64,000 bases of DNA from assembly GCA_964564905.1 (NCBI GenBank), contig CAZMCI010000001.1, forward strand, positions 7,986 through 71,985. The letters are read 5' to 3'. Each line of letters starts with the position of its first letter. Within the stretch, counting starts at the first letter, position 1. The notes beneath the pieces are model-generated. The model saw nothing but the letters and a program-made list of their open reading frames with translations, ran no database searches and was not told the DNA's origin. The position numbers and the translations under genes are program-made. This stretch comes from Candidatus Hadarchaeota archaeon. Lineage in GTDB: Archaea; Hadarchaeota; Hadarchaeia; Hadarchaeales; Hadarchaeaceae. Shown in pieces: positions 15,445-54,312 of this stretch.

Positions 15445-15735
15445 TTGATATCCATGAAAGCCAGAGCTCACGTTTTCATCACCGGACGTGTCACCGGTGT
15501 CTTCTTCAGGTACTACACCCAACAACTGGCCAGAAAACTGGGCGTGAATGGGTGGGTTAGAAATTTGCGCGATGGAAGGGTCGAGGCCGTCTTCGAGGGG
15601 GGACGTGAAGAGGTGGAGAAAATGGTGAAATTCTGTCATGATGGACCCCCTGGTGCAAGAGTGACGGATGTTGAAGTCAAATGGGAGGAATACAAGAGCG
15701 AGTTCTCGGGATTTGAGATAAGGTACTGGGGATGA
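15445..15735 (+). CDS. acyP: Acylphosphatase
   Basis: VxGxVQGVxFR-type motif ([14 protein letters not shown]), [17 protein letters not shown]; 96 aa. Confidence 0.8.
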
Positions 15736-49505: not shown

Positions 49506-50201
49506 TCATCTTACCATGTCGTCGAGTATCAGGTCTTCCCTTCTCGCCCCGATCTTCCTCAGGATGCTTATTGCCCAGTCGATTTTCCCCACGTCCGCAG
49601 GGGAGTGGGCGTCCGAACCCACGCTTAGCTTCACCCCCTCCCGGAGGCACAAGGCCAGAAACTCCTCATCCGGCGCGCGGTATTTCACGTTCACCTCTAC
49701 AGCCATGCCGCGGCGGGCGAGCAGTTTCACAAAGTTCTCTATCTCCTGTCGAGGGAGATATGGAAGTAGGTTCTGATGATAGTGAAATGGATGGCCCAGC
49801 ACGTCGAACTTTCTGTTGGTCACCGCTTTTTTCATTCTTTCTAGGTACTCCCTCGCTGCTTCCCTGGGATCGACAAGCTCTCCGAGCGTGTGGATGCTAA
49901 TTATGCGCAGATCCAGCATTTTCTCGAGTTCTGGTTCTAAATCAACTCTGCCCTCTTGGTCCACCACGTTTACTTCCATACCTTTCAGCACGGGTATTGC
50001 AGCTTGTTCGCGCGCCATCTCGATGTCTCTTAGCATGTGTTTCACTTTTCCGCGCAGGACTCCCACGTGTAGCTCCGGTCCGTGGTCGGTTATGGCTACA
50101 GCCTCCAGCCCGCGGGCCTCCGCTGCCTCCACCATCTCAAGCGGCCCGCTTCTCCCGTCAGAATAGTATGTGTGGGTGTGAAAGTCGAATTTTGGTATCA
50201 T
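49506..50201 (-). CDS. PHP-domain metal-dependent phosphoesterase
   Basis: FDFHTHTYYSDG N-terminal PHP motif; ITDHG; GSDAHS. Confidence 0.6.
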   Translation of the reverse strand: MIPKFDFHTHTYYSDGRSGPLEMVEAAEARGLEAVAITDHGPELHVGVLRGKVKHMLRDIEMAREQAAIPVLKGMEVNVVDQEGRVDLEPELEKMLDLRIISIHTLGELVDPREAAREYLERMKKAVTNRKFDVLGHPFHYHQNLLPYLPRQEIENFVKLLARRGMAVEVNVKYRAPDEEFLALCLREGVKLSVGSDAHSPADVGKIDWAISILRKIGARREDLILDDMVR

Positions 50202-50298
50202 TCAACCAATTAATGAAACTATCCAAAATTGAAAAAGCTAACTGATGAGCGATCTCCATCCTTCTCCATTTTCCACATAGGGTTCGATTCTTGTCAAA

Positions 50299-50414
50299 AG
50301 TTAATGTTGTTAGAAATTGTTAAGATTTTGGTTAGATTTTGTTAGAAATAGTTAGCTTTATAAGACAAGGACTGTCAAATGTGGTTAGAAATGGTTAAAA
50401 ATTGTTAGGAAAGG
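50299..50414. repeat. Iteron-like array: at least 8 tandem degenerate copies of (T/G)GTTAGAAAT at ~11-bp phasing in an AT-rich spacer
   Basis: GTTAGAAAT appears three times exactly (50311, 50341, 50384), plus the variants GTTAAGATT, GGTTAGATT, AGTTAGCTT, GGTTAAAAAT, GTTAGGAAA. GTTA offsets are spaced 9-13 bp. Confidence 0.5.
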
Positions 50415-50469
50415 TGAGATTACGGGAGGGGACAAAGCGAGACTTTACACAGTAGGAGAAGCATGTTCT

Positions 50470-51201
50470 GTGCTTGGTATACACCCGAATACTCTCAGGA
50501 GGTGGGACAAACAGGGAAAGATAAAAGTGGTGCGTCATGGAAGGGGCCATAGAAGGATTCCGGAGGAGGAGATCGCTCGGGTACTTCAGAAATCAGAGGT
50601 CTTTGAAAAGAAATCGACCCTATCAGGTCCAGAAAATTTGAAGGAGGAGCTCAAATCCTCGTTTTTGAGATACGTTTTTTTGTATAATCGGGATGATTGG
50701 GAGCTCGTTAAGCGGGCGGTTCTCATTCGGGACAATTATACGTGTGCGAAATGCGGTGGAAAGGAGCTTTTGGATGTCCATCACAAAGATGGGACTTCCC
50801 GTAACGATCCGGATAACCTCATCACCCTATGTAAAAAGTGTCATGGAGAGGTTCATGGTGAGATTTCGGTACAAAAAAAGCATAAAATTGAAACTAAAAC
50901 TCAAATTAAGCATTTAAATAAAACAAAATTTGAAATAAAGACAAAAACATCCCCGGAAAAGAAAGAAATGCCTCGTACAAGCATTATTGATGGACTTACT
51001 CCATCGGGACTTATGGAGCGGACAGCGTTTGGAGGGCTTCTCTCAGGAGCGATTGCGCTGAAAAATTTTACGGTGGAGGAGCTTGCGAATAGGACCAGAT
51101 GTCCGATACCGGTTGCAAAGAAGTTTTGCGAGCGCATGGAGGCGCGCGGCCACGTGTTGAACAAGGATGGGAAGTACGAAATGGTGGTGAAGGTGATCTA
51201 G
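50470..51201 (+). CDS. MerR/excisionase-type HTH + HNH endonuclease domain protein. The HTH first helix is encoded upstream of the annotated GTG start, but no canonical start codon is in frame.
   Basis: The upstream in-frame translation reads ...LYTVGEACSVLGIHPNTLRRWDKQGKI. HNH motif CAKCGG...DVHHKDG...NLITLCKKCHGEVHG. Confidence 0.55.
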   Translation: MLGIHPNTLRRWDKQGKIKVVRHGRGHRRIPEEEIARVLQKSEVFEKKSTLSGPENLKEELKSSFLRYVFLYNRDDWELVKRAVLIRDNYTCAKCGGKELLDVHHKDGTSRNDPDNLITLCKKCHGEVHGEISVQKKHKIETKTQIKHLNKTKFEIKTKTSPEKKEMPRTSIIDGLTPSGLMERTAFGGLLSGAIALKNFTVEELANRTRCPIPVAKKFCERMEARGHVLNKDGKYEMVVKVI

Positions 51202-52079
51202 TGAGCATTTTTGACGATAAGATAGGTCGGGATAAGGTCTTTGAAGACTACCTCATGCGCTGGGGTCTCCAGCACGACCCGTTTCAGTTGGAGATGTCTT
51301 CCATAGATCTCTTCGTACCTGTTCAAGAGGAGGATCTGAGGAAGCTGAAGTGGGTTCTCACTGGGGGAAAATTAGGAGCTCTGGTGGGAGGACTCGGCAC
51401 CGGAAAAACCACGCTATGCGAGTTTTTGGTGGCTTCTTTGAGGGAGGAGAGCCTGCTTGCCCCGGAAAGCTCGAAACTGATCGTACCAGTGTTCGTCCAT
51501 GGCGCTGCTTACCGGTCCATGGATGATGTGCTACGGGCCATAATGCTTGGTTTAGAGATGGACGCTGGAAAGGACCGCGCAAGCATGTTTGAAGTTCTTC
51601 GCAGGTGGCCGTGGGAACATCCAGAGCGCTTAGCACTTGTGGTCGATGACATCCACGAGAGCCGGGTGAATCCTAGGGACATGGGTGAGTTCCTAAGAGT
51701 TCTTGTGGACATCCCAGAGATAACCATCCTGATAAACGGAGAGCCCAAACGAATGCGCGAGTTCTTAGAGAAGGTCCCCGCGCTCAGGGATCGCATCCAG
51801 GTGCACGTTGAGATAAAGCCAATGAGTCCAGAAAGCTTGAGAAAGATGTTGGATCTACGCCTAAAAAACGCTGGTTGCGAAAACGGAGCCGTATTATTGA
51901 CCGAAAGCGGATTTAAAGCGATTTACAGGTTCAGCAAGGGGGTACCACGCCGGGCGCTCAAGCTTGCAAGCAATGCTCTCCGGTACGCGGCGAGGGTTGA
52001 TACACCCATCACGGATAAAGCAGTGAAAAAGGGAAACGGGATCTCCTTTTTTAGACGCTCGTTTGCGAGATGGATTTAA
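51201..52079 (+). CDS. ExeA-like AAA+ ATPase (AAA_16/AAA_22-type P-loop NTPase), start at GTG 51201
   Basis: YLMRWGLQHDPFQLEMSS...LVGGLGTGKTTL Walker A; LVVDDIHE Walker B; overlaps the HNH gene stop. Confidence 0.6.
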   Translation: MSIFDDKIGRDKVFEDYLMRWGLQHDPFQLEMSSIDLFVPVQEEDLRKLKWVLTGGKLGALVGGLGTGKTTLCEFLVASLREESLLAPESSKLIVPVFVHGAAYRSMDDVLRAIMLGLEMDAGKDRASMFEVLRRWPWEHPERLALVVDDIHESRVNPRDMGEFLRVLVDIPEITILINGEPKRMREFLEKVPALRDRIQVHVEIKPMSPESLRKMLDLRLKNAGCENGAVLLTESGFKAIYRFSKGVPRRALKLASNALRYAARVDTPITDKAVKKGNGISFFRRSFARWI

Positions 52080-52546
52080 TCCTGCGGGGGAAGAGCCCCG
52101 ACAATTATTTATTGGAGTTTCCAAAATATGGAAACGATATCGTGCCGGATAGAAACTCTCTCCAGCCCGAGGAGTGGTTACGAGAAAACCTGCTCGCTCA
52201 CGCACTTCTGGAACGTTCGCACTTGGATGAAAAAACGTTGAAAGCAATGATTTTGCACTCTTGGAGCGAGAATACGAGCTTTGCCGAAATCGCCAAGAGG
52301 CTCAAAATGCAGAAACCAGGAGCATGGAAGCGATGGCAGAGAGGCAGGGACGCGATAATGCGATCATTTTACACCATAGAGCTTGCCATCTACGCCGGAG
52401 TTTTAGATGTTGAAACAGCTGAACTCCTGATAGACGATCTGTTGGACTATACAAGTCTATCGCGCGGTGAAGGAAATGTTGAAGAAATAAGGGACCGCAT
52501 AGAACGCCGAATGATACAGCTCGCCAAGCAGGCCTCTAGGAGATAA
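52070..52546 (+). CDS. Small protein with a sigma-70 region-4-like HTH
   Basis: LDEKTLKAMILHSWSENTSFAEIAKRLKMQKPGAWKRWQRGRDAIMR resembles ECF sigma region 4; overlaps the ATPase stop. Confidence 0.4.
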   Translation: MDLILRGKSPDNYLLEFPKYGNDIVPDRNSLQPEEWLRENLLAHALLERSHLDEKTLKAMILHSWSENTSFAEIAKRLKMQKPGAWKRWQRGRDAIMRSFYTIELAIYAGVLDVETAELLIDDLLDYTSLSRGEGNVEEIRDRIERRMIQLAKQASRR

Positions 52547-53571: not shown

Positions 53572-54312
53572 ATGGGGAAAGTTCTCGCATTCGCCTCGGG
53601 AAAGGGTGGTTCGGGAAAAAGCGTGGTCACAGCGAACCTCGGGATAGCATTTGCCAAGTTCGGTAAGAGCACCCTGCTCATGGATGCCGATCTGTCGATG
53701 CCGAATCTCGGCATTCTAACAGGCTTGAAAAGCGCTCCTGTGACCCTCTACGAAGTGCTCGACAAAACCAAACCCTTGGATCAAGCTATCTACAAAGTGT
53801 ACGCTGGAGCGGACATCATGCCCTGTGGGACATCATTGGAAGCCTTTTTGAAAGCCGACATCCGCAGGCTGAAAAACGTGGTGGAGAAAGTGAAGGAAAG
53901 GTACGAATATGTTTTAATCGACACGGCCTCCGGACTCAACAAGTACACCCTAGGCGGGTTAAAGGTGGCTGATGAGGTTGTGTGGGTGGTAAACTTGGAC
54001 GAACCTTCCCTCGCCGACACCCACAGGCTGAAAACAGCTGCAGAACTATTCGGACTAAAAACTAAAGGCATGATAGTAAACCGGGTAACTTCCCTTTCTT
54101 GGATAGAGCGAAAAAAGATACCCGCCCCCAAGCGAAACGAGTTGGAGACGAGACTTGGAGCAAAAATTTTGGGTGTAATCCCCGAAAGCAGGGAGGTTTA
54201 CAAGGCCACATTGCTTCAAAAGCCGGTACTGGAGTACGTCTCAAAGGGGAAAATCATGAAAGCCTTTAGGGAGTGTGCGAGAAATCTGTTGCTGGAAAAT
54301 ATGAACCAATAA
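53572..54312 (+). CDS. minD: MinD/ParA-family ATPase (archaeal MinD-like)
   Basis: Deviant Walker A ASGKGGSGKS; 246 aa. Confidence 0.8.
   Translation: MGKVLAFASGKGGSGKSVVTANLGIAFAKFGKSTLLMDADLSMPNLGILTGLKSAPVTLYEVLDKTKPLDQAIYKVYAGADIMPCGTSLEAFLKADIRRLKNVVEKVKERYEYVLIDTASGLNKYTLGGLKVADEVVWVVNLDEPSLADTHRLKTAAELFGLKTKGMIVNRVTSLSWIERKKIPAPKRNELETRLGAKILGVIPESREVYKATLLQKPVLEYVSKGKIMKAFRECARNLLLENMNQ

What the first reader, a model, noticed from the sequence alone, without database searches (positions are those of the whole stretch)
50299..50414. Phased array of >=8 GTTAGAAAT-like iterons (~11-bp period) in front of the HTH-HNH gene
There are three exact GTTAGAAAT copies plus five one- or two-mismatch variants (some extended by a G). 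GTTA offsets are spaced 9-13 bp apart, roughly one helical turn, which is typical of protein-wrapping sites such as plasmid iterons, partition centromeres, or transposon-end binding arrays. It is not a CRISPR array: the units are 9-10 bp with no unique spacers. The MerR-HTH of the downstream protein is the likely binder.
Basis: seen in the sequence. Interest (0 to 1): 0.5.

Follow-up and report, generated by a model that had tools for sequence, protein, structure and literature searches.

The report
Phased operator repeats before archaeal HTH-HNH gene
Ten short direct repeats, set one DNA turn apart around the promoter of a Hadarchaeota DNA-binding/nuclease gene, are conserved across the phylum and are most likely where that protein lines up head-to-tail to control its own operon, a bacterial mechanism here seen in a new archaeal setting.

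Summary
Nine GTTA-core units plus a tenth GTGA unit lie at 50300-50422, all on the + strand. They form two blocks of 6 and 4 units around a TATA-like box. Local spacing is mostly 10 bp, and the whole set fits a 10.5-bp period (R=0.93). Nothing else in the 64-kb window comes close (9 GTTA[AG] in 120 bp; the next best cluster has 3).

The array is not an accident of AT-rich DNA. The same layout precedes the orthologous gene in every Hadarchaeota locus with upstream sequence examined, while the spacer and flanks diverge. A sister clade with a different recognition helix has a different unit (AAGGACA) at the same place.

The downstream protein combines an HTH_17/MerR-like domain, an HNH domain and a winged helix. 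Its N-terminal domain matches BldC best by sequence and predicted fold, and it resembles the DNA-binding domains of IS607 transposases. Both of those bind helically phased 9-bp direct repeats as cooperative head-to-tail filaments.

Best reading (about 0.6): an autoregulatory operator array covering BRE/TATA and the transcription start of a three-gene operon (HTH-HNH, Orc1/Cdc6-like AAA+ ATPase, small HTH protein). No evidence supports a replication origin, centromere or transposon end, but an ATPase-loading platform is not excluded. Binding is inferred, not shown.

The parts
50300..50359 (+). Block A: six direct-repeat units (starts 50300, 50309, 50319, 50331, 50341, 50351), consensus TTGTTAGAAAT. 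The last unit (AGTTAGC) occupies the BRE position next to the TATA-like box.
   Evidence: The number of upstream units varies from 2 to 7 among orthologous loci. The closest relative, L081, has one more unit than the window.
50357..50364 (+). TATA-like box TTTATAAG. Transcription is inferred to start near 50387, giving a 5' UTR of about 35 nt.
   Evidence: The sequence is. AGTTAAC-TTTTTAAGG or GTTAAC-TTTATATG is conserved at about -72 to -57 from the start codon in all orthologues. The start-site position is an inference from the usual archaeal distance between TATA box and start site, and was not measured.
50365..50383 (+). Variable spacer between the TATA-like box and block B. It contains AAGACAAGGAC and TGTCAAATG.
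   Evidence: It is not conserved among relatives, whereas the flanking units are (alignment A2). The step between the last block A unit and the first block B unit is 33-35 bp in most loci, about three helical turns.
50384..50422 (+). Block B: four units at an exact 10-bp spacing (starts 50384, 50394, 50404, 50414). The last unit, GTGAGATTA, contains the Shine-Dalgarno-like GGTGA (50413-50417).
   Evidence: Units at -38, -28, -18 and -8 from the start codon are conserved in orthologues.
50422..51201 (+). Gene for the protein with a BldC/IS607-DBD-like HTH, an HNH nuclease domain, a Lys-rich linker and a C-terminal winged helix. ACG at 50422 stands where orthologues have ATG or GTG. The public annotation starts at GTG 50470, which would cut off the first helix of the HTH.
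   Evidence: Pfam HTH_17 8e-13, MerR 8e-9, HNH 4e-6. Alignment with 15 homologues. AlphaFold2 model with mean pLDDT 77 and well-folded domains. Foldseek match to BldC with TM 0.77-0.84.
51201..52079 (+). Gene for an AAA_22 (ExeA-like) AAA+ ATPase of 292 aa. Its GTG start overlaps the preceding stop codon by one base (TAGTG).
   Evidence: Pfam AAA_22 5.9e-10. TIGR03015 1.5e-14, below its cut-off. Model pLDDT 87; the best solved folds are archaeal Orc1/Cdc6 (TM 0.64-0.70), then TnsC, MuB and RFC. Present in all 21 loci.
52142..52546 (+). Gene for a protein of about 134 aa found only in Hadarchaeota, with weak similarity to sigma-70 region 4 / YlxM-type HTH.
50234..50242 (-). A single GTTAGCTTT on the opposite strand, in the BRE/TATA-like element of the divergent PHP gene (49506-50201, minus strand).
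   Evidence: Perfect 10-nt inverted copy of 50350-50359. PHP promoters in other loci read ATTARC-(C/T)TTTTCA whether or not they lie next to the array.

Best explanation
The array is a set of about ten binding sites, one protomer per 9-10-bp unit, for the protein encoded immediately downstream. That protein's N-terminal MerR-like winged HTH is of the BldC / IS607-transposase type. Protomers would bind head-to-tail and cooperatively on one face of the DNA. The resulting filament would run from about 90 bp upstream to about 35 bp downstream of the transcription start. It would cover the BRE/TATA (block A, last unit) and the start site plus leader (block B). In this way it would set the expression of the operon, most simply by repression at high occupancy. 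The operon encodes the HTH-HNH protein, an Orc1/Cdc6-like AAA+ ATPase and a small HTH protein.

Shown: the repeats, their phasing, their conservation and fixed position, the fold of the HTH, and the change of repeat unit together with the protein clade.
Inferred: that this protein is the binder, that one protomer binds per unit, the position of the transcription start, and the sign of regulation.
For: 1. Ten same-strand units fit a 10.5-bp period with R=0.93. The mean R over 17 orthologous loci peaks at 10.5-10.75 bp (0.74-0.78), against 0.30 at 10.0 bp and 0.28 at 12 bp.
2. Aligned on the start codon, the 19 orthologous loci with upstream sequence (41-83% protein identity) share one layout. 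Nearly all have units at about -38, -28, -18 and -8, GTTAAC next to a TATA-like box at about -72, and further units upstream. The spacer, the flanking gene (PHP, HypE, TnpB or a 195-aa ORF) and the number of upstream units all vary.
3. Across 261 kb of Hadarchaeota loci, such clusters occur only in front of this gene, or in duplicated copies of its promoter.
4. The N-terminal domain's best PDB match by sequence is BldC (6ama/6amk, E=1e-5). BldC is also the best match by predicted fold (TM 0.77-0.84, rmsd 1.4-1.8 A, 35% identity). BldC binds 9-bp direct repeats AATTxxxx(C) head-to-tail in variable numbers (PMC5859096). The reverse complement of the unit, ATTTCTAAC, fits that pattern.
5. The same domain is 51-65% identical to the DNA-binding domains of archaeal IS607-family transposases. 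IS1535 TnpA nucleates on four helically phased 9-bp direct repeats, with about 10 bp covered per unit (PMC6188088).
6. Co-variation: clade-2 orthologues have recognition helix SVRTLQRQ instead of HPNTLRRW and no HNH domain. They carry 3-5 AAGGAC/AAGAC units and no GTTA between TATA and start. Clade 1 carries 3-9 GTTA[AG] units and no AGGAC/AAGAC units there, apart from two in the window's own spacer.
7. The array is kept where the catalytic His-His of the HNH domain is lost (L017, L018, L021). In clade 2, where the domain is absent, the array is replaced by another repeat. The conserved role is therefore DNA binding, not cutting.
Against: - No binding data exist.
- The operon encodes three candidate DNA-binding modules: the N-terminal HTH, the C-terminal winged helix and the small HTH protein. 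The clade co-variation does not tell them apart, because all three proteins differ between the clades.
- BldC Arg30 aligns with a residue that is Leu in one GTTA-bearing lineage (P0027 group), so the BldC contact map does not transfer directly.
- A purely regulatory role does not explain why the partner genes are a nuclease domain and an initiator-clade ATPase.
- In this window the start-codon position reads ACG, so the protein may be poorly made in this genome.
- The TATA box and transcription start are predicted only.
Confidence: 0.6

Rival explanations
1. The array is a loading or assembly platform, and regulation is secondary. The site-specific binder bound to the repeats would recruit the neighbouring Orc1/Cdc6-like AAA+ ATPase onto DNA. 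This would resemble ORC-Cdc6, TniQ-TnsC, MuA-MuB or IstA-IstB. The result would be a lineage-specific replication origin or another DNA transaction, possibly with nicking by the HNH domain.
For: - The ATPase model's best solved-fold matches are archaeal Orc1/Cdc6, then TnsC and MuB. It lacks a DNA-binding domain of its own (292 aa, AAA_22 only).
- The three genes are strictly linked in 21 of 21 loci, and the ATPase start overlaps the preceding stop codon.
- The region is AT-rich (GC 0.28) and the repeats are helically phased.
- The set is found across the phylum at a stable chromosomal position.
Against: - The units lack the TTCC...GAA core of ORB and mini-ORB elements (PMC1904270). No ORB-like cluster is present in the window.
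- All units point one way, with no inverted arms around an unwinding element.
- The array is tied base-for-base to the TATA box and start codon.
- Gene orientation and cumulative GC skew around 52 kb are convergent rather than divergent, which is weak evidence in archaea.
- The fold-search E-values for Orc1/Cdc6 and for TnsC/RFC are close, so the match indicates the AAA+ clade, not the family.
- The HNH catalytic residues are lost in several lineages.
Confidence: 0.15
2. The repeats are operators for a different factor. This could be the C-terminal winged helix of the same protein, the small HTH protein of about 134 aa, or an unlinked global regulator (for example of the SurR, Lrp or TrmB type). 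The BldC-like HTH would then not be the binder.
For: - The C-terminal domain is a confident winged helix (pLDDT 86-95) resembling IclR, MarR and TrmBL2. It is the most conserved part of the protein, including two conserved cysteines.
- The small protein has HTH-like annotations from some sources.
- The clade co-variation cannot separate these candidates.
Against: - Winged helices of the MarR/IclR type and sigma region 4-type HTHs usually bind dyad or paired sites as dimers. Here there are up to ten same-strand units with no dyad.
- The only experimentally established binders of 9-10-bp helically phased head-to-tail repeats among the relatives found are BldC and IS607 TnpA, both homologous to the N-terminal domain.
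- The SurR site GTTn3AAC(n5GTT) implies a 14-bp register and an AAC arm, which the units lack. This comparison rests on my own knowledge of that motif.
Confidence: 0.15
3. The array is a centromere-like partition site, or a relic or active end of a mobile element (an IS607-like subterminal repeat array, an attachment site or a packaging site).
For: - The HTH resembles IS607 transposase DNA-binding domains, whose natural sites are subterminal phased repeats.
- PHROGs and PADLOC give weak hits to excisionase, small terminase, MuB and mad1/mad8.
- In one lineage the 140-bp array is duplicated in direct orientation around a 1.1-1.25-kb insert, with three copies in L020.
- A ParA/MinD gene lies 1.4 kb downstream of the operon in the window.
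Against: - The locus is a single copy at the same chromosomal position across the phylum, between the PHP/hyp genes and thyX. There is no recombinase, no second end and no variable cargo.
- ParA is not consistently adjacent.
- The duplicated copies are decaying (71-85% identity) and the insert carries no mobility gene.
- Neither the array nor homologues of the proteins were found in viral contigs.
Confidence: 0.05
4. The array is neutral AT-rich tandem-repeat DNA produced by slippage, or an RNA element in the 5' leader, with no protein-binding role.
For: - Perfect (N)GTTAGAAAT tandem repeats occur in many unrelated metagenomic contigs.
- Unit number varies between close relatives.
- Block B is probably transcribed.
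Against: - The units are conserved, while the spacer diverges, across relatives down to 41% protein identity.
- The register relative to TATA and start codon is fixed.
- Helical phasing is maintained across a 33-35-bp gap.
- The units are degenerate rather than recent perfect copies.
- Block A lies upstream of the predicted promoter, so an RNA role cannot explain it.
- No Rfam match falls in the array.
Confidence: 0.03

Closest known systems
BldC of Streptomyces (a MerR-like winged HTH with no dimerisation domain) and its direct-repeat operators (PMC5859096; PDB 6AMA, 6AMK)
   Same: - BldC is the best sequence and predicted-fold match of the N-terminal domain.
- Its sites are 9-bp direct repeats, present in variable number and bound head-to-tail and cooperatively. 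Each has an AT-rich part plus a fixed G/C pair, and they lie in promoters. The unit ATTTCTAAC fits AATTxxxx(C).
   Different: - This case is archaeal, whereas the BldC family was described as bacterial.
- The domain is fused to an HNH nuclease and a second winged helix in a protein of about 260 aa; BldC is a free-standing 68-aa protein.
- There are up to ten units here, against two to four for BldC.
- The core is a strict GTTA, with a 10-10.5-bp register rather than 9 bp.
- This is an apparently single autoregulatory site, whereas BldC controls a regulon.
- The NCBIfam BldC model scores 32 bits against a cut-off of 77, so the protein is not a family member by that criterion.
N-terminal DNA-binding domain of IS607-family serine transposases and their subterminal repeats (IS1535; PMC6188088)
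   Same: - These are the closest sequence relatives of the HTH outside the family, at 51-65% identity over about 50 residues in archaeal TnpA proteins. NCBIfam transpos_IS607 scores 8e-9 on the HTH only.
- IS1535 TnpA binds four 9-bp direct repeats in helical phase, covers about 10 bp per unit, and forms a cooperative filament.
   Different: - No serine-recombinase domain is present.
- There are no transposon ends, no GG termini and no second array.
- The locus is fixed in the chromosome.
- The array overlaps a promoter.
Lambda Xis and other excisionase-type winged helices on X1-X1.5-X2 sites
   Same: - The excisionase-family HTH models match the domain (TIGR01764 3.4e-11, above its cut-off; Pfam HTH_17).
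- From established knowledge and PMC5859096, Xis forms head-to-tail micro-filaments on direct repeats.
   Different: No integrase or att site is present, there are many more units, and the array lies in a promoter.
Archaeal oriC with ORB / mini-ORB repeats next to orc1/cdc6
   Same: An AT-rich intergenic region with multiple short repeats lies next to a gene whose product folds like the Orc1/Cdc6 AAA+ module.
   Different: - There is no TTCC...GAA core in the units and no inverted ORB pair.
- The ATPase lacks the winged-helix domain and does not reach the orc1/cdc6 model cut-off (TIGR02928 E=0.088).
- The repeats are tied to a promoter.
Plasmid iterons (RepA/Pi-type)
   Same: Both are direct repeats in helical phase, close to and autoregulating a gene for the binding protein.
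   Different: - Iterons are typically 17-22 bp and are bound by Rep proteins with two winged helices.
- The context here is chromosomal and conserved across a phylum.
- No Rep homologue is present.

Membership tests
BldC-type direct-repeat operator | The binder has a MerR-like winged HTH without the coiled-coil dimerisation or effector domain. | tested here: met
   Pfam HTH_17/MerR covers residues 19-68 only. No coiled coil follows; the HNH domain comes next. BldC is the top Foldseek hit, with TM 0.77-0.84.
BldC-type direct-repeat operator | The protein scores above the curated BldC family threshold. | tested here: not met
   NF033787 HTH_BldC scores 32.1 bits against a cut-off of 77. The resemblance is at domain level, not subfamily level.
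BldC-type direct-repeat operator | The sites are same-strand repeats of about 9 bp, in variable number, each with an AT-rich part plus a fixed G/C position, located in promoters. | tested here: met
   Orthologous loci carry 2-10 GT[TG]A units, and the reverse complement ATTTCTAAC fits AATTxxxx(C).
BldC-type direct-repeat operator | Cooperative head-to-tail binding with one protomer per repeat. | not testable with these tools
   This needs EMSA, footprinting or a structure.
IS607-family transposon end | A serine-recombinase catalytic domain follows the HTH. | tested here: not met
   No resolvase domain or YARVSS motif is present. The transpos_IS607 model matches positions 2-52 only, at 35 bits against a cut-off of 110.
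IS607-family transposon end | Two ends with subterminal motifs bound a mobile segment. | tested here: not met
   There is a single array at a fixed chromosomal position in 21 or more species.
Archaeal Orc1/Cdc6 origin (oriC) | ORB or mini-ORB elements with conserved TTCC and GAA cores, usually as inverted pairs around an AT-rich unwinding element. | tested here: not met
   The units read TTGTTAGAAAT and all lie on one strand. No ORB-like cluster is present in the window. The consensus is taken from PMC1904270.
Archaeal Orc1/Cdc6 origin (oriC) | An adjacent orc1/cdc6 gene encoding an AAA+ module plus a C-terminal winged helix. | tested here: inconclusive
   The neighbouring ATPase has an Orc1/Cdc6-like AAA+ fold. 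It is only 292 aa, has no winged-helix domain, and scores E=0.088 on TIGR02928.
Archaeal Orc1/Cdc6 origin (oriC) | Replication starts at this site (skew switch, marker frequency). | not testable with these tools
   Only 64 kb is held. The skew in the window follows gene orientation.
Partition centromere (parS / SegB site) | The site is linked to a ParA/SegA ATPase and a centromere-binding protein in one operon. | tested here: not met
   The ParA/MinD gene (53572-54312) is separated from the operon by thyX on the other strand, and it is absent or distant in most orthologous loci.
CRISPR array | Repeats of 24-48 bp separated by unique spacers of similar length. | tested here: not met
   The units are 9-10 bp and contiguous.

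The most novel reading that the evidence does not exclude
The array, the HTH-HNH-winged-helix protein, the Orc1/Cdc6-like ATPase that lacks its own DNA-binding domain, and the small HTH protein may together form a 'split initiator' specific to Hadarchaeota. The repeat filament would recruit and load the AAA+ ATPase at one chromosomal site. That would make the site a non-ORB replication origin, or a site for another programmed DNA transaction. The DNA-binding domain would have been exapted from an IS607-like transposase.
Probability: 0.1. Interest if true: 0.85.

Novelty: new variant of a known kind. Interest (0 to 1): 0.45.

Why it matters
Head-to-tail filaments of MerR-like winged helices on phased direct repeats are known from only a few bacterial systems: BldC, IS607 TnpA and Xis.

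This locus would extend that binding mode to Archaea, and to an unusually long and regular array of ten units in register with the DNA helix across a promoter. It would also show the domain in a new fusion, with an HNH nuclease and a second winged helix.

The locus offers a clean test bed, because two natural protein clades carry two different repeat units at the same position.

The system is conserved across the phylum, has no assigned function, and includes an Orc1/Cdc6-like ATPase. Working out what the array recruits could therefore reveal a new piece of chromosome biology in an uncultured archaeal phylum. If the array is only an autoregulatory operator, the result is a tidy but modest addition.

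Tried and rejected
1. Scans of public collections for GTTAGAAATNGTTARAAATNGTTA gave 3 viral and 62 metagenomic hits. None encodes a homologue of the three operon proteins (tblastn). Many hits are perfect 10-bp tandem repeats in unrelated contigs, and the one examined in detail (L139) has few long ORFs and looks eukaryote-like. Inspection of neighbouring ORFs showed no consistent small HTH gene. The unit sequence alone is therefore not diagnostic, and this line gave nothing.

2. The array gave no Rfam match. Two sub-threshold hits lie inside the coding region (RAGATH-25 at 22 bits against a cut-off of 49, and a snoRNA model) and are taken as chance.

3. Canonical origin signals were absent. No ORB-like cluster was found, none of ten large ORFs sampled across the window is orc1/cdc6, and two literature searches for Hadarchaeota replication origins or Cdc6 returned nothing useful.

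4. I asked whether other proteins with the same HPNTLRRW recognition helix carry GTTA arrays upstream. These were archaeal IS607 transposases and a 66-aa Lentibacillus protein. They do not, so this gave no independent confirmation of the link between helix and motif. The sites of transposases would lie at element ends, which I did not delimit.

5. The exact GTTAGAAAT at 15556 lies inside a coding region and has no neighbouring units, so it does not indicate a second target.

6. PADLOC hits (mad1, mad8, ZorE) and PHROGs hits (HNH, MuB-like, terminase small subunit) reflect domain-level similarity only. The distribution of the operon across the phylum at a fixed position argues against a defence island or prophage.

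7. The sigma-70 promoter scanner was not used, because the organism is archaeal.
Full report
THE OBSERVATION

The region 50299-50414 contains same-strand units with an invariant GTTA core. They start at 50300, 50309, 50319, 50331, 50341 and 50351 (block A) and at 50384, 50394 and 50404 (block B). A tenth unit, GTGAGATTA, starts at 50414 and contains a Shine-Dalgarno-like GGTGA. Three units are exactly GTTAGAAAT.

Exact copies number 4 in the 64-kb window against 0.42 expected. The fourth, at 15556, lies inside a coding region. With one mismatch allowed, the window as a whole shows no excess (11 against 13.6 expected). The signal is therefore the clustering, not the word itself.

GTTA[AG] occurs 9 times in 120 bp here, against 64 times on the whole + strand. 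The next densest 120-bp stretch has 3, and the five other AT-rich segments of the window have none of note. Shuffles of the AT-rich region itself give a mean of 1.4-1.6 GTTA, and at most 1 in 10,000 reaches 9.

The steps between units are 9, 10, 12, 10, 10, 33, 10, 10, 10 bp. All ten starts fit a 10.5-bp period with resultant length 0.93, and none of 5000 random placements reaches that value. The fit is 0.35 for 10.0 bp and 0.51 for 11 bp. The units therefore lie on one face of the helix across both blocks. Tandem Repeats Finder sees periods 10 and 11 only weakly, with scores of 41-48, because the units are degenerate.

THE SURROUNDINGS

The window is core archaeal chromosome. The S13, S4, S11 and RpoD genes lie just upstream, with L3, SecY and a pseudouridine synthase further upstream. 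ThyX, a ParA/MinD-like ATPase, dCTP deaminase and an anaerobic ribonucleotide reductase lie downstream.

Between the two blocks lies TTTATAAG (50357-50364), a good archaeal TATA-like box. The last unit of block A (AGTTAGC) occupies the BRE position. By the usual archaeal spacing, transcription would start near 50387. Block B would then cover the start site and a leader of about 35 nt. This is an inference, not a measurement.

THE DOWNSTREAM PROTEIN

Pfam finds HTH_17 / MerR (8e-13) and HNH (4e-6). The AlphaFold2 model has three confident folded parts joined by disordered linkers: an N-terminal winged HTH, the HNH domain and a C-terminal winged helix.

The HTH begins upstream of the first canonical start codon (GTG 50470). 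Fifteen homologues start M-x-E-x-K-x-R-L-Y-T, and their start codon aligns with ACG at 50422. The true 5' end of the gene therefore abuts the array. In this genome the initiation codon is non-canonical or mutated.

CONSERVATION

Full-length homologues come only from Hadarchaeota (Hadesarchaea) genomes: 21 loci in a scan of one genome per species. In every locus that extends far enough, the gene is followed by the same two genes.
- The first is an AAA_22 ATPase, 43-83% identical to the window's. Its start overlaps the preceding stop codon.
- The second is a protein of about 134 aa found only in this phylum.

Aligned on the start codon, the 19 loci with upstream sequence share one layout. Nearly all have units at about -38, -28, -18 and -8, GTTAAC abutting a TATA-like box at about -72, and further units upstream. 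The weakest case is L016, with only two GT[TG]A starts in the 130 bp scanned.

In a five-way alignment the invariant columns fall on the units and the TATA-like box, while the spacer between TATA and block B is free to vary. The closest relative (83% protein identity) has one more upstream unit than the window. The step from the last upstream unit to the first downstream unit is 33-35 bp in most loci.

Mean phasing strength over 17 loci peaks at 10.5-10.75 bp (0.74-0.78), against 0.30 at 10.0 bp.

The gene upstream of the array differs between lineages. It is PHP in the window, HypE in many loci, an inserted TnpB element in L081, and a small membrane-protein gene in the L009 group. The array therefore travels with the HTH gene, not with its neighbour.

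A NATURAL SPECIFICITY SWAP

A more distant clade keeps the synteny (PHP, hypCAE, HTH protein, ATPase, small protein). Its first protein is about 188 aa, has no HNH domain, and has a different recognition helix: SVRTLQRQ instead of HPNT[LI]R[RL]W. In its four loci, the stretch from the TATA-like box to the start codon is filled with AAGGACA/AAAGACA direct repeats at 9-10-bp spacing and contains no GTTA. Clade-1 loci have 3-9 GTTA[AG] units and no such units there. The one exception is two in the window's own spacer.

The repeat unit thus changes together with the protein while its position stays the same. That is what is expected if a product of the operon binds the repeats. It does not show which of the operon's three DNA-binding modules is responsible.

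WHY THE N-TERMINAL HTH IS THE BEST CANDIDATE

- Its best match among solved structures is BldC, both by sequence (6AMA/6AMK, E about 1e-5) and by predicted fold (TM 0.77-0.84, rmsd 1.4-1.8 A, 35% identity).
- BldC is a MerR-like winged HTH without a dimerisation domain. It binds 9-bp direct repeats, AATTxxxx(C), head-to-tail and cooperatively, in numbers that vary between promoters (PMC5859096). The reverse complement of the unit here, ATTTCTAAC, fits that pattern.
- Outside its own family, the domain's closest sequence relatives are the N-terminal DNA-binding domains of archaeal IS607-family serine transposases, at 51-65% identity.

Two independent experimental precedents from the same domain family therefore match the anatomy seen here. 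By contrast, MarR/IclR-type winged helices (the C-terminal domain) and sigma region 4-type HTHs (the small protein) usually read dyads. This last point rests on established knowledge.

WHAT THE HNH DOMAIN AND THE ATPase ADD

The zinc-binding cysteines and the catalytic His-His of the HNH domain are intact in the window and in most homologues. The His-His is lost in L017, L018 and L021, and the domain is absent in clade 2, yet the repeats persist. The conserved core function is therefore DNA binding rather than cleavage.

The ATPase model (pLDDT 87) is closest to the AAA+ module of archaeal Orc1/Cdc6 (1W5S, 1FNN, 2QBY, 2V1U; TM 0.64-0.70). TnsC, MuB and RFC follow. The protein is only 292 aa, lacks a winged-helix domain, and does not reach the orc1/cdc6 family threshold. 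It belongs to the initiator/loader clade of AAA+ ATPases, whose members are typically recruited to DNA by a separate site-specific protein.

This keeps open a more interesting reading: the repeat filament could be a loading platform. Several points argue against a canonical origin.
- The units lack the TTCC...GAA core of ORB and mini-ORB elements (PMC1904270).
- All units point one way.
- No ORB cluster is present in the window.
- The array is tied to the promoter.

I could not test for a canonical orc1/cdc6 gene elsewhere in these genomes, or for replication profiles.

VERDICT

The most likely mechanism (about 0.6) is a BldC-like head-to-tail filament on the gene's own promoter, autoregulating a three-gene operon of unknown function that is conserved across the phylum. 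This is a new archaeal variant of a known bacterial binding mode. Every step involving binding remains inferred.

Noticed in passing
window 50419-50472: The codon aligned with the ATG/GTG start of every orthologue is ACG (50422), preceded by an in-frame ATT (50419). No canonical in-frame start exists between the stop at 50386-50388 and GTG 50470. The public annotation uses GTG 50470 (243 aa), which removes the first helix of the HTH. The cause could be non-canonical initiation, a recent start-codon mutation or a sequencing error.
   Followed up: partly
L009 4934-5061 and 5896-6024; also L014, L015, L019; L020 3411-6030: In one Hadarchaeota lineage the array-plus-promoter segment of about 140 bp is duplicated in direct orientation (71-85% identity). 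The copies flank a 1.1-1.25-kb insert that encodes a 195-aa membrane-anchored protein on the opposite strand. L020 has three array copies (a tandem duplication at 92% identity). This suggests that the arrays act as recombination substrates.
   Followed up: partly
L081 4191-5489 (also L082; L088 2068-3162): TnpB (Cas12f1-like_TNB, IS200/605-type) genes are inserted next to the operon: between PHP and the array in the closest relative, and downstream of the ATPase in a clade-2 locus. The array is left intact.
   Followed up: no
L006 1-80: The contig begins with four tandem copies of a 20-bp two-unit block (ATTGTTAGGAATGGTTAAGG) just before the start codon. This is either a real expansion of block B or an assembly break within the repeats.
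   Followed up: no
window 51201-52079: The ExeA-like AAA_22 ATPase is predicted with high confidence to fold like the AAA+ module of archaeal Orc1/Cdc6, then TnsC and MuB. It has no winged-helix domain. Its family is essentially confined to Hadarchaeota and is always linked to the HTH gene.
   Followed up: partly
L017, L018, L021 (HNH region); L084, L086-L088: The catalytic His-His of the HNH domain is lost in three lineages, though the zinc cysteines are kept. The whole domain is absent in a sister clade. The HTH, the C-terminal winged helix and the promoter repeats persist in all of them.
   Followed up: yes
window 50234-50243 (minus strand) and 50350-50359: A perfect 10-nt inverted copy, AGTTAGCTTT, sits in the promoter-like element of the divergent PHP gene. 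PHP promoters in other loci read ATTARC-(C/T)TTTTCA even when they are far from the array. RTTARC next to a T-rich box may therefore be a shared BRE-like feature or a single regulator site.
   Followed up: partly
L084 4270-4330; L087 upstream of 1935: Some clade-2 loci carry a second, G-rich repeat family (AAC[TC]GGGGAGT, 3-4 copies about 14-15 bp apart) upstream of the TATA-like box. It is distinct from the AAGGACA units downstream.
   Followed up: no
window 50362-50372: The variable spacer of the window contains AAGACAAGGAC, which resembles two units of the clade-2 repeat. No other clade-1 locus has this.
   Followed up: no
window 50880-50950: The Lys-rich disordered linker between the HNH domain and the C-terminal winged helix is encoded by AT-rich DNA that contains a 17-bp tandem repeat (50912-50946, 2.1 copies). 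Linker length varies among homologues.
   Followed up: no
C-terminal domain of the HTH-HNH protein (about 51100-51160): Two cysteines eight residues apart (RCP...FCERM) are invariant or nearly invariant in the C-terminal winged helix across the family. They may form a redox or metal site.
   Followed up: no
L092, L095, L105, L115, L118, L139, L150 (metagenome contigs): Degenerate TTGTTAGAAAT arrays of 8-10 units, strikingly similar to the window's, occur in low-GC contigs. The one examined in detail (L139) has few long ORFs and looks eukaryote-like. None of these contigs has a homologue of the operon proteins.
   Followed up: partly
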